This document shows positions 51,102 to 52,807 of a stretch of DNA of 64,000 nucleotides, piece after piece. Positions within the stretch are counted from its first letter, which is position 1. Each line of letters opens with the position of its first letter. The DNA lies in the NCBI RefSeq assembly GCF_009914755.1, contig NC_060942.1; one strand, written 5' to 3'. Position numbers and translations under genes: made by a program. The notes beneath the pieces were generated by a model that was not told the origin of the DNA, ran no database searches, and was given only the letters and a program-made list of their open reading frames with translations. The DNA comes from the human T2T-CHM13v2.0 reference genome, Homo sapiens.

Positions 51102-51295
51102 GGCTCAAGAGATCCTCCCTCCTTGGCCTCCCAAAGTGTTGGGATAACAAGGATAACAGGAGTGAGCCGCCATGCCTGGCTGAGCCAGTAATTTTTACTC
51201 TCTTAAAAACTAGGTTATTCCTAATGATTCTGCCTTTGAGTTGAAATTACTGTGTGTGTGTGTGTGTGCGTGTGCACACGTGCATGCATCCAAGT
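51102..51295. repeat. Left arm of a ~195-bp inverted duplication (partner 52610-52807)
   Basis: Reverse complement of the right arm: truncated Alu fragment + ~70 bp unique sequence + (TG)n + tgcatccaagt. Confidence 0.95.
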
Positions 51296-51383
51296 CTTTT
51301 TATAAATGTGCTGCTCCCTGTTTTTAGTTTATAAGAGAACATTGCTAATACTTCTTACTGACTTTCTTGTATTTCCTTACTAG

Positions 51384-51491
51384 TTTTTCCAGAAAGGAGG
51401 AGTCAAGGAAGCCCTTAGTGAACGAGAACTCTTCAATGCTGTTTCAGGCTTAAACATCACAGCAGATAATGAAGCTGATTTTTTAGCTGAG
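51384..51491 (+). CDS. RIOK3: RIOK3 exon 12, FFQKGGVKEALSERELFNAVSGLNITADNEADFLAE
   Basis: tactag|TTT ... GAG|gtatgt, 108 nt, phase 0-0. Confidence 0.94.
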
Positions 51492-52609
51492 GTATGTGAT
51501 AAACAGCTGTTTTTCACCTTGCTGGTCATGCAGAACTGCATAGAGGAGATAACTGAAACCCAGAGCTAGTTTTATCCTCCCTTTCCCCCAAAACAAAATT
51601 AATTTGAGATTTTTCTTTTCTTAAGATGTTTTTGGTTTTTTCTTTTTTTCTTTTTTTTTTTGAGATGGAGTCTTGGTTTGTCACTCAGGCTGGAATGCAG
51701 TGGCGTGATCTTGGCTCACTGCAACCTCTGCCTCTTGGGTTCAAGCGATTCTCCTGCCTCAGCCTCCTGAGTAGCTGGGATTACAGGTGTGTGCCACCAT
51801 GCTTGGCTAATTTTTGTATTTTTGGTAGAGACAGGGTTTCGCCATGTTGGCCAGGCCGGTCTTGAACTCCTGGCCTCAAGGGATCCACCCACCTTGGCCT
51901 CCCAAAGTGCTGAGATTACAGGCATGAGCCACTGTGCCCGGCCTGTTTTTTTCTATACTTAAAATTCAGAATACACACACAGCAAAACATTTCTTCACGG
52001 AGGGCACCATTTGGTTAAGATGGGCAAACTGTACATTTCCAGTAGACTCCTATTTCCCCTATTTAATGAATGAGGAAGTTGAACACTCTGAGTGATACAA
52101 AAAATAGTAACATGTGGTCCCTGCCCTTTACTAAACATAGAAAGTTAGAAGTGCCTATCTTTGGAAATACCCGGTTATTATAATATCAGATCTAGAGAAC
52201 CATGAAAAAGCTTCCTCCAGAGAAAGTCTCTTAAAATTGAACAAAATCTAAAAGGTGAAATAGCAGTTAATTATTCCCAACATTATACCAAAGCAGAGAG
52301 TGATTACTGAGTCTGTTCCAGAAATCCCCAGGATGACTTGAGTTTGGGTAAGCTGGGCCTAGCCTAAGGCTAGAGAGAAATAACAGAAAGATGGTAAATT
52401 CGTTCTTCCAGCACAATACAGTTGCTCAGTAAGTAAGTGATACTGTTGTTTGATGAATGGTAGAGTTTTCTTTTTCCTGTTTCTGGAATGTTTTATAGAA
52501 TACATTTCAAAACATAGATGATTCCAATTGCTAGCTGGATAAAGATAGTAAATATTGACCCTTGCAATCAAGTTAAAAAAAATACATGTATGTATGACTA
52601 TTTGTGTAT

Positions 52610-52807
52610 ACTTGGATGCACGCACACACACACACACACACACACACACACACACATAGTAATTTCAACTCAAAGGCAGAATCATTAGGAATAACCTAGT
52701 TTTTAAGCGAGTAAAAATTACTGGCTCAGCCAGGCATGGCAGCTCACTCCTGTTATATCTGTTATCCCAACACTTTGGGAGGCCAAGGAGGGAGGATCTC
52801 TTGAGCC
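52610..52807. repeat. Right arm of the inverted duplication, includes a (CA)n microsatellite
   Basis: acttggatgca-(CA)n-tagtaatttcaactcaaaggcagaatcattaggaataacctagtttttaagcgagtaaaaattactggctcagccaggc ... ttgagcc. Confidence 0.95.

What the first reader, a model, noticed from the sequence alone, without database searches (positions are those of the whole stretch)
51102..52807. Near-perfect ~195-bp inverted duplication, partly unique sequence, brackets only RIOK3 exon 12
Seen: 51102-51295 is the reverse complement of 52610-52807. The non-Alu core of about 71 bp (tgagccagtaatttttactctcttaaaaactaggttattcctaatgattctgcctttgagttgaaattact) has one mismatch. The adjoining Alu piece differs at only about 3-4 positions and both copies share an odd tgtta..tgtta duplication. 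The (TG)n/(CA)n tracts also pair. The Alu is cut short in the left arm but continues in the right arm, so the left arm looks like a copy of the right. The ~1.3-kb loop contains just exon 12 (108 nt, phase 0-0), and the left arm ends 88 nt before its acceptor. Inference: (1) the duplication arose by template switching rather than by independent Alu insertions; (2) the pre-mRNA could form a long, high-identity stem that promotes in-frame skipping of exon 12 (loss of aa 449-484), single-exon back-splicing, or dense ADAR editing; (3) the arms could mediate a polymorphic inversion flipping exon 12. I know of no description of this element but cannot exclude one.
Basis: partly seen in the sequence, partly recalled or inferred. 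Interest (0 to 1): 0.8.

Follow-up and report, generated by a model that had tools for sequence, protein, structure and literature searches.

The report
Inverted intron duplication flanking RIOK3 exon 12
A roughly 195-base piece of RIOK3 intron 12 was copied backwards into intron 11 millions of years ago, so exon 12 sits between two near-identical inverted arms, but nothing found here shows that this changes how the gene is spliced.

Summary
51102-51295 is the reverse complement of 52610-52807, with 182 matches, 12 mismatches and one 4-nt gap. It is the best of 989 inverted pairs of 100 bp or more in the window. Its 71-bp core occurs only twice in the whole genome, once in each arm.

The right arm is the original. 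It holds the 5' target-site duplication and the start of an Alu-monomer-like element, which continues to its A-tail and to a matching 3' duplication. The left arm is a truncated inverted copy without poly-A or target-site duplication. It arose by templated copying, about 13-34 My ago by point estimate, with very wide limits.

The functional reading is not supported. The arms pair when folded alone (182 bp, -346 kcal/mol). They are absent from every minimum-energy fold that includes the neighbouring Alus. Three ordinary Alu pairs also bracket only exon 12 and are at least as stable. Five searches found no paper on exon 12 skipping, a RIOK3 exon-12 circle, or editing of these arms.

It is a new member of a known kind, probably neutral, and most plausibly a substrate for ADAR, the enzyme that edits adenosine to inosine.

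The parts
51102..51295 (+). Left arm: derived, inverted copy in intron 11. It has three parts: 51102-51179 antisense Alu-monomer fragment, 51180-51250 copy of unique sequence, 51251-51295 (TG)n and tail.
   Evidence: alignment to the reverse complement of 52610-52807. (core found only at the two arms in the genome). (no poly-A or poly-T and no target-site duplication at its ends).
52610..52807 (+). Right arm: source segment in intron 12. It has three parts: 52610-52658 (CA)n with a short leader, 52659-52729 unique sequence including the 5' target-site duplication, 52729-52807 first ~78 nt of an Alu-monomer-like element.
51384..51491 (+). RIOK3 exon 12 (108 nt, phase 0-0, codons 449-484), the only exon between the arms.
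   Evidence: Hub annotation. (open 36-aa translation). (exons 9-11 match RIO1 profile positions 65-172 of 187; exon 12 alone gives no match).
52713..52728 (+). 5' target-site duplication of the composite retroelement. It lies inside the right arm and is copied into the left arm at 51181-51196 on the other strand.
   Evidence: Read. It matches 53155-53170 at 14 of 16 positions.
53155..53170 (+). 3' target-site duplication, after the A-tail of the full Alu. There is no counterpart near the left arm.
   Evidence: Read.
52729..52866 (+). Alu-monomer-like element with an A-rich tail. The arm homology stops inside it at 52807. It carries a 9-bp tandem duplication at 52750-52767.
   Evidence: 52759-52837 matches positions 19-97 of the in-window Alu. 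(TAAAAAA x3 at 52846-52866)..
52874..53160 (+). Full sense Alu 'B' in intron 12, partner of the antisense Alu in the loop.
51647..51954 (-). Antisense Alu 'A' inside the loop. It is the hub of the competing duplexes with B and with the three sense Alus of intron 11.
   Evidence: (-380 to -487 kcal/mol)..
49555..50668 (+). Three sense Alus of intron 11 (49555-49844, 49862-50149, 50354-50668). Each pairs with Alu A across exon 12.

Best explanation
This is a single, old, local inverted micro-duplication. A 198-bp piece of RIOK3 intron 12 was copied in reverse orientation into intron 11, 88 nt upstream of exon 12. The piece comprised a (CA)n tract, 71 bp of unique sequence and the first ~78 nt of an Alu-monomer-like element.

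The copying was done by DNA synthesis on a nearby template. That could be a replication template switch of the MMBIR / four-point type, or templated repair synthesis. It was not retrotransposition. That the right arm is the source and the left arm the copy is shown. The exact enzymology is inferred.

Divergence of the non-microsatellite part (4-5 events in 149 nt) puts the event at about 13-34 My by point estimate. The confidence limits run from 4 to 78 My. It is therefore expected to be fixed in humans and shared with other apes, and perhaps with Old World monkeys. This is inferred and was not tested.

In the pre-mRNA the arms can form a 182-bp duplex. That pairing crosses, and so competes with, four Alu-Alu duplexes of equal or greater total stability. 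Two sets of partners are available before the right arm is transcribed: sense Alus for the left arm's Alu part, and the intron-11 sense Alus for the loop Alu.

My committed reading is as follows. The element is selectively near-neutral for RIOK3 output. Its most likely molecular consequence is A-to-I editing of the arms, by ADAR, the enzyme that edits adenosine to inosine, in the fraction of nuclear transcripts where they do pair. The adenosines opposite C at 51150 and 52741 should be edited preferentially. At most it makes a minor contribution to exon 12 skipping or back-splicing, on top of what the flanking inverted Alus already allow.
For: The duplication is real and exact at the stated limits. 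The core is unique in the genome: 2 matches of 2 candidates scored in the first look, and these are the two arms. The flanks 50760-51101, 51296-51640 and 51960-52609 are single-copy apart from a pseudogene match to exon 12.

Polarity. A 16-nt target-site duplication (52713-52728 and 53155-53170, 14 of 16) flanks the composite retroelement whose 5' end lies in the right arm. The left arm has the 5' duplication and a truncated element, but no tail and no 3' duplication. Both arms share the 9-bp tandem duplication inside the Alu piece, so the copy was made after that micro-event.

There are no retroposition hallmarks at the left arm's ends and no further templated pieces nearby. Shared 12-mers with the surrounding 12 kb number 0 in the left flank and 2 overlapping ones in the right flank, both pointing to one distant A/T-rich site near 57488. 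AGT ends both the upstream flank and the insert, which allows a 3-nt microhomology at the return junction. The layout corresponds to the 1-4-3-2 pattern, which PMC7954356 describes as generating single inverted repeats (passages).

Age. P(at least 4 differences) if the copy were 6.5 My old or younger is 0.017-0.13.

None of the five differences in the non-microsatellite part preserves a Watson-Crick pair. One is a G-U wobble. The others are A-C, G-A, C-A and U-C (read). That is what drift without selection on pairing would give.

The duplex alone has an energy of -345.7 kcal/mol over 182 bp.
Against: No outgroup genome, population data or RNA data could be consulted, so age, fixation, the empty-site sequence and every RNA-level consequence are inferred.

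The neutral reading rests partly on nested, pseudoknot-free minimum-energy models. Those models cannot represent both helices forming at once, and they ignore kinetics, helicases and proteins.

The arm pair has the highest identity of all inverted pairs in the window. It lies very close to the exon 12 acceptor (88 nt), so a real effect on splicing is not excluded.

Five differences are too few to test for selection on pairing. Gene conversion between the arms would make the event older than estimated.

Microhomology is 3 nt at one junction and 0 at the other, which is weak support for any particular mechanism.
Confidence: 0.72

Rival explanations
1. The inverted arms are a functional, primate-specific cis element. 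The stem loops out exon 12 and measurably drives one of two outcomes. One is in-frame skipping, giving RIOK3 without codons 449-484. The other is a 108-nt single-exon circular RNA.
For: The arms form a 182-bp duplex when folded alone and have the highest identity of any inverted pair in the window. The left arm ends 88 nt from the acceptor. Exon 12 is 108 nt in phase 0-0, so skipping stays in frame (and the hub table). Inverted repeats as short as 30-40 nt can suffice for circularisation (PMC5042038, passage).
Against: There are 0 arm-arm pairs in each of the three minimum-energy folds that include neighbouring Alus, and a 109 kcal/mol penalty when the pairing is forced. Four Alu pairs are as stable or more so, and three of them already bracket only exon 12.

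The same review says that competition among complementary sequences affects circularisation, that stronger pairing can impede it, and that single-exon circles use exons longer than average. At 108 nt this exon is short.

No paper mentions RIOK3 exon 12 skipping or circRIOK3 (only 2 papers held any of the 5 terms. One concerned intron 3 primers (read). The other listed hsa_circ_0047155 from RIOK3 without coordinates). The known RIOK3 splicing events are the exon 8 alternative 5' splice site and intron retention, which one search places in intron 3. A processed pseudogene carries exon 12.
Confidence: 0.12
2. The left arm was made from RNA. A piece of RIOK3 pre-mRNA, or of an antisense transcript, was reverse-transcribed into a double-strand break. 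This would be a templated sequence insertion without LINE-1 hallmarks, rather than copying from DNA by a switching polymerase.
For: The source lies in a transcribed intron of the same gene. The size (~195 nt) is in the range I recall for such insertions (Onozawa et al. 2014; recalled, not seen here). The copy has no target-site duplication or poly-A.
Against: Nothing in the sequence requires an RNA step. The source is only 1.3 kb away, which is what a local polymerase switch predicts, whereas an RNA template has no reason to land next to its gene segment. A 3-nt overlap at one junction fits either model.
Confidence: 0.1
3. The arms are a recombination substrate. Homologous exchange between them produces a polymorphic inversion of 51296-52609, which flips exon 12 and gives a loss-of-function allele.
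For: The arms are inverted, ~194 bp, 94-96% identical and 1.3 kb apart.
Against: The longest uninterrupted identity is 49 bp. That is below the few hundred bp usually quoted as the minimum for efficient homologous exchange in mammals (recalled). Exon 12 is in the coding orientation in this assembly. No population data were available, and no paper links RIOK3 with an inverted repeat of this kind. One search listed 4 papers holding both terms. Three are reviews of other topics judged from title and abstract alone, and the fourth was read only at one RIOK3 passage.
Confidence: 0.03
4. The arms are an assembly artefact, or two independent Alu insertions that happen to face each other.
For: None beyond the presence of Alu sequence in both arms.
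Against: The arms differ at 12 positions and one indel and lie 1.3 kb apart. That is unlike a fold-back read artefact. The homology includes 71 bp of sequence that is unique in the genome, and a microsatellite. The left arm has no Alu tail or target-site duplication.
Confidence: 0.01

Closest known systems
Template-switch mutations (four-point model; FoSTeS/MMBIR-type events), as described in PMC7954356 (abstract and passages seen)
   Same: A stretch of the descendant sequence is the reverse complement of a nearby stretch, which creates a single inverted repeat. The layout is 1-4-3-2. There are no mobile-element hallmarks. A short overlap is possible at a switch point.
   Different: The published short-range events are sought within tens to hundreds of nucleotides of the mutation cluster. 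Here the copied piece is 198 bp and lies 1.3-1.7 kb away. The ancestral state was not available, so the event is inferred from one genome only.
Inverted Alu pairs and other reverse-complementary sequences in flanking introns that promote back-splicing or exon skipping (review PMC5042038, passages; Zhang et al. 2014, Liang and Wilusz 2014 and Lev-Maor et al. 2008 recalled)
   Same: Complementary sequences in the two introns flanking an exon could bring the splice sites together.
   Different: More than half of each arm (about 116 of 194 nt) is non-repeat sequence or microsatellite, and identity is far higher than for Alu pairs. No circular or skipped product is documented. In predicted folds the arms lose to the neighbouring Alu pairs. 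The exon is short for a single-exon circle.
Long intronic double-stranded RNAs edited by ADAR (editing-enriched regions; PMC4889969 seen as search listing and abstract start only)
   Same: A near-perfect intramolecular duplex of about 180 bp in an expressed gene is the kind of substrate that is hyper-edited.
   Different: Editing at these arms was not examined. Most known substrates are Alu pairs, whereas this one is largely unique sequence.
Inverted duplications flanking inversions made by staggered breaks (Drosophila model; recalled)
   Same: Short inverted duplications lie at both ends of a segment.
   Different: The enclosed segment carries exon 12 in the correct orientation, between exons 11 and 13, so it has not been inverted.

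Membership tests
Template-switch / templated inverted duplication | The inserted stretch is the reverse complement of a nearby stretch | tested here: met
   51102-51295 against the reverse complement of 52610-52807, 182 matches, 12 mismatches, one 4-nt gap.
Template-switch / templated inverted duplication | The source copy sits in its native context and the other copy is truncated out of context | tested here: met
   target-site duplications at 52713-52728 and 53155-53170 (14 of 16) flank the retroelement that starts in the right arm. The left arm stops inside the element and lacks its tail and 3' duplication.
Template-switch / templated inverted duplication | The ancestral (outgroup) sequence lacks the copy and shows a clean empty site | not testable with these tools
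   No primate genomes are held. The own-genome search has no relatives (header).
Template-switch / templated inverted duplication | Microhomology at the switch points | tested here: inconclusive
   AGT ends both the upstream flank and the insert (3 nt). There is none at the other junction. The ancestral site is unknown.
Independent Alu insertions forming an inverted Alu pair | Homology is confined to Alu sequence, and each copy has its own tail and target-site duplication | tested here: not met
   the homology includes 71 bp of unique sequence and a microsatellite. The left arm has no tail or duplication.
Transposon with terminal inverted repeats | The arms recur elsewhere in the genome as a repeat family | tested here: not met
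   the core matches only the two arms; the flanks and loop are single-copy. The tool states that its counts are lower bounds.
Circular-RNA-promoting flanking complementary sequences | Complementary sequences are present in both introns flanking the exon | tested here: met
Circular-RNA-promoting flanking complementary sequences | Pairing across the exon is favoured over competing pairings | tested here: not met
   0 arm-arm pairs in three minimum-energy folds with neighbours included.: +109 kcal/mol when the pairing is forced. These are nested models only.
Circular-RNA-promoting flanking complementary sequences | Back-splice junction reads (51491->51384) | not testable with these tools
   No RNA-seq was available.
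ADAR-edited long intronic dsRNA | A long near-perfect intramolecular duplex in a transcribed region | tested here: met
   182 bp, -345.7 kcal/mol. Both arms lie in RIOK3 introns (hub table).
ADAR-edited long intronic dsRNA | Clustered A-to-G differences between RNA and genome | not testable with these tools
   No RNA data. One search listed 12 of 13 papers, all reviews or unrelated studies by title and abstract. None is about editing in RIOK3 introns.
Inversion-prone inverted repeats (homologous exchange) | Uninterrupted identity of a few hundred bp (threshold recalled) | tested here: not met
   the longest perfect tracts are 49 and 48 bp.

The most novel reading that the evidence does not exclude
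A primate-specific, mostly non-Alu inverted duplication acts as a tunable RNA switch in RIOK3, a kinase reported (recalled) to restrain the dsRNA sensor MDA5. When the arms pair, exon 12 would be skipped or circularised, and a near-perfect 180-bp dsRNA would be produced. ADAR1 editing or helicase activity would set how often this happens. That would couple dsRNA metabolism to the output of a dsRNA-pathway regulator.
Probability: 0.05. Interest if true: 0.6.

Novelty: new member of a known kind. Interest (0 to 1): 0.3.

Why it matters
If the arms did influence exon 12, this would be a clean natural case in which a single datable mutation created a high-identity, largely non-Alu intronic duplex around one short constitutive exon. 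Such a case is useful for separating the effect of duplex quality from that of Alu sequence in exon skipping, back-splicing and editing.

As it stands, it mainly illustrates two things. Local templated inverted copying can reach about 200 bp over more than 1 kb in the primate germ line. And a striking inverted repeat need not be the dominant RNA structure when ordinary Alus surround it.

Tried and rejected
- Earlier findings were not open.
Lists that might name RIOK3 circles or edited regions were therefore not seen.
- I tried to reconstruct the pre-insertion site from other genomic copies of the flanks. That failed because the flanks are single-copy.
- I looked for further templated fragments around the left arm. 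None was convincing (0 shared 12-mers in the left flank, 2 overlapping A/T-rich ones in the right flank).
- Rfam scan of 49332-53236: 0 families at gathering score.
- Literature:
  - RIOK3 with circRNA: 32 papers, 20 listed. Two were read at their RIOK3 passages. One lists hsa_circ_0047155 without coordinates, and the other uses RIOK3 mRNA only.
  - RIOK3 with alternative splicing and exon skipping: 17 papers, 15 listed. The passages read concern intron retention, exon 8 and a cassette exon at another position; intron 3 is named only in the paper, which came from the search.
  - RIOK3 with A-to-I editing: 13 papers, 12 listed.
  - RIOK3 with inverted repeat: 4 papers.
  - RIOK3 with Alu and intron: 7 papers, 6 listed.
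  - None describes this element.
- Rejected readings:
  - Independent Alu insertions, because of the unique core and shared micro-duplication.
  - A transposon with terminal inverted repeats, because there are only two copies genome-wide and an exon lies inside.
  - An inversion by staggered breaks, because the exon orientation is intact.
  - An assembly artefact, because the arms have diverged and are 1.3 kb apart.
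Full report
**Observation.** The stated repeat is in the sequence at the stated place. 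The repeat finder gives arms 51102-51274 and 52635-52807, 173 nt, 96% complementary, 1360 nt apart, plus overlapping microsatellite pairings up to 51295 / 52610. A gapped local alignment with 40 nt of extra flank on each side returns exactly 51102-51295 against the reverse complement of 52610-52807. It has 182 matches, 12 mismatches and one 4-nt gap, and homology ends abruptly at both borders.

In the non-microsatellite part (51102-51250, 149 nt) there are five mismatched positions: 51150-51152, 51168 and 51201. The remaining seven mismatches and the gap lie in the (TG)n/(CA)n part. The pair scores 285 bits in a self-BLAST. It is the most similar of 989 inverted pairs of 100 bp or more in the 64-kb window (91.9% with gaps, next 89.4%, median 78.4%). 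It is also the best of the 7 inverted pairs with at least 50 non-Alu bases in both arms.

The 71-nt core 51180-51250 was searched in the whole assembly. It matches only two places, the two arms, at 100% and 99% (the tool warns that its counts are lower bounds). The arithmetic on exon 12 is right. The coding parts before it sum to 1344 nt, so it starts in phase 0. It is 108 nt and reads as 36 residues without a stop. The left arm ends 88 nt before its acceptor.

**Anatomy and polarity.** Using the full Alu at 52874-53160 as a probe, I mapped the Alu content of the two introns.
- Intron 11 has three sense Alus: 49555-49844, 49862-50149 and 50354-50668.
- Intron 12 has one antisense Alu (51647-51939, with its T-rich end reaching about 51954).
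- Intron 12 also has a sense element whose 52759-52837 matches Alu positions 19-97.
- The probe Alu itself follows that element.

The short sense element runs from about 52729 to an A-rich tail at 52846-52866 (TAAAAAA x3). It has the length of one Alu monomer. The label 'free left monomer-like' rests on my recollection of Alu structure, not on a library.

Reading, a 16-nt word at 52713-52728 directly precedes this element. It recurs at 53155-53170, directly after the A-tail of the full Alu, with 14 of 16 identical. This is a target-site duplication around the composite, so the full Alu evidently landed in the tail of the older monomer.

The right arm contains the 5' duplication and the first ~78 nt of the element. 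The left arm contains their reverse complement, but stops inside the element and has neither tail nor 3' duplication. Both arms also carry a 9-bp tandem duplication inside the Alu piece (right 52750-52767). The three adjacent mismatches fall within it and look like one change in each arm.

Three conclusions follow. The arms descend from one sequence. The right arm is the original. The copy was made after the retroelement insertion and after the 9-bp slip. Independent Alu insertions are excluded.

**How the copy was made.** The left arm has no poly-A or poly-T and no flanking duplication, so retrotransposition hallmarks are absent. Its flanks and the loop are single-copy in the genome. That rules out a repeat family or a transposon with terminal inverted repeats. 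It also prevented me from rebuilding the pre-insertion site from paralogues. No other templated fragments lie around it.

The upstream flank and the insert both end in AGT. A clean insertion would therefore have a 3-nt overlap at the return junction and none at the other junction. In the four-point description of template switching the points fall in the order 1-4-3-2, one of the two patterns said to generate single inverted repeats (PMC7954356; abstract and passages). That work searches within tens to hundreds of nucleotides. Here the copied piece is 198 bp and 1.3-1.7 kb away, nearer the scale usually discussed under FoSTeS/MMBIR.

Templated synthesis during break repair, from DNA or from RNA, would leave the same product. 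The sequence of one genome cannot separate these. An inversion by staggered breaks is rejected because the enclosed exon is in the coding orientation.

**Age.** The 149 non-microsatellite positions carry four or five events, that is 2.7-3.4% between the arms. At 0.5-1.0 x 10^-9 per site per year this gives point estimates of 13-34 My, with 95% limits from 4 to 78 My. If the copy were 6.5 My old or younger, the chance of at least four differences would be 0.017-0.13. A human-specific or polymorphic insertion is therefore unlikely but not excluded. The rates are recalled values, and gene conversion between the arms would bias the estimate downwards. No primate or population data were available.

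**What the RNA could do.**
- *Alone.* Folded alone (51102-52807), 182 of 194 left-arm bases pair with the right arm. The two-strand duplex energy is -345.7 kcal/mol.
- *Rival pairings.* The arms are not the only complementary pair around exon 12. The antisense Alu in the loop pairs with the downstream sense Alu (-487 kcal/mol, 265 bp). It also pairs with each of the three intron-11 sense Alus (-487, -478 and -380 kcal/mol). The arm pair ranks fifth.
- *Topology.* Every one of those Alu pairings crosses the arm pairing, so in a nested structure they exclude each other.
- *Whole unit.* For intron 11 - exon 12 - intron 12 (3905 nt) the minimum-energy structure has energy -1512.5 kcal/mol. It contains 265 pairs between the two intron-12 Alus and no arm-arm pair. 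Forcing the unique core to pair restores 182 arm-arm pairs but costs 109 kcal/mol (-1403.4).
- *Partial transcript.* With the transcript ended at the right arm, before the downstream Alu exists, the fold has 269 pairs between intron-11 Alus and the loop Alu. It has 68 pairs between intron-11 Alus and the left arm, and no arm-arm pair.
- *Upstream Alus removed.* The intron-12 Alu pair wins again.

In the order of transcription, the left arm's Alu part and the loop Alu both meet partners before the right arm is made. These models ignore pseudoknots, kinetics, helicases and proteins. They therefore lower, but do not abolish, the chance that the arms pair in some transcripts.

**Consequences for the three proposed effects.**

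*Skipping.* It would be in frame. Exons 9-11 match RIO1 profile positions 65-172 of 187, and exon 12 alone gives no match. Exon 12 would therefore encode the last edge of the RIO domain and the start of the tail, which is my inference from the profile positions. No evidence of skipping was found. The RIOK3 events in the papers I read are:
- intron retention used as a drug marker (PMC4263873, passages; PMC9345261, passages, where it is intron 3);
- an alternative 5' site in exon 8 (PMC8668116, passages; PMC13178736, passage; PMC8807687, listing and abstract start only);
- an alternative splice site event (PMC8395096, passage);
- a cassette exon at another coordinate (PMC3401465, passage).

A processed pseudogene on contig 13 carries exon 12 between exons 11 and 13.

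*Circles.* One array paper lists hsa_circ_0047155 from RIOK3 without coordinates (PMC8783515, passage). Nothing was found for circRIOK3 or 'RIOK3 exon 12'. A review states four relevant points (PMC5042038, passages). Repeats of 30-40 nt can suffice. Stronger pairing can impede circularisation. Multiple complementary sequences compete. Single-exon circles use longer-than-average exons. All but the first of these points argue against a 108-nt exon-12 circle being prominent.

*Editing.* A 180-bp near-perfect duplex is a textbook ADAR substrate (recalled). I rate this the most likely consequence wherever the arms do pair. The two adenosines opposite C (51150 and 52741, read) are the predicted best sites. 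No paper on editing in RIOK3 introns was found.

*Inversion.* The longest perfect tracts are 49 and 48 bp, which is short for homologous exchange (threshold recalled). It could not be tested.

**Selection on pairing.** Of the five differences in the non-microsatellite part, one leaves a G-U wobble. The other four give A-C, G-A, C-A and U-C oppositions. None is compensatory. The numbers are too small for a test, but the pattern is what drift would give.

**Verdict.** The inference of a single duplication with the left arm as the copy is well supported, while the precise mechanism is open. This is a new instance of two known things: a templated inverted duplication, and an intronic inverted repeat around an exon. 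It is most probably neutral.

**Limits.** There were no outgroup genomes, no population data and no RNA data. An Rfam scan of the two introns found nothing.

Noticed in passing
L003 949-2762 (G000:C13:74051500-74056500): This is a processed pseudogene of RIOK3. Exons 1-9 and 11-13 lie contiguously at 73-90% identity. An 81-nt unmatched gap (2198-2278) equals the length of exon 10. Exon 12 lies between exons 11 and 13.
   Followed up: partly
window 52713-52728 and 53155-53170: A 16-nt target-site duplication (14 of 16) encloses a composite of an Alu-monomer-like element and a full Alu. The full Alu appears to have inserted into the A-rich tail of the older element.
   Followed up: partly
window 52750-52767 (and 51142-51159 on the other strand): There is a 9-bp tandem duplication inside the Alu piece, shared by both arms. 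The three adjacent arm-to-arm mismatches lie within it and look like one change in each arm.
   Followed up: yes
window 51251-51274 and 52619-52656: The duplication placed a (UG)12 tract about 110 nt upstream of the exon 12 acceptor, while the source carries (CA)19 in intron 12. From memory, such tracts bind TDP-43 and hnRNP L respectively, so each arm could affect splicing through proteins without any stem. This was not tested.
   Followed up: no
window 254-358 and 5397-5497: This is the second-best non-Alu inverted pair in the window (106 bp, 86.8%), in the SLC35D4 part of the window.
   Followed up: no
window 50654-50741: A long (AT)n tract directly follows the third intron-11 Alu. It shows up as many perfect self-complementary pairs.
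   Followed up: no
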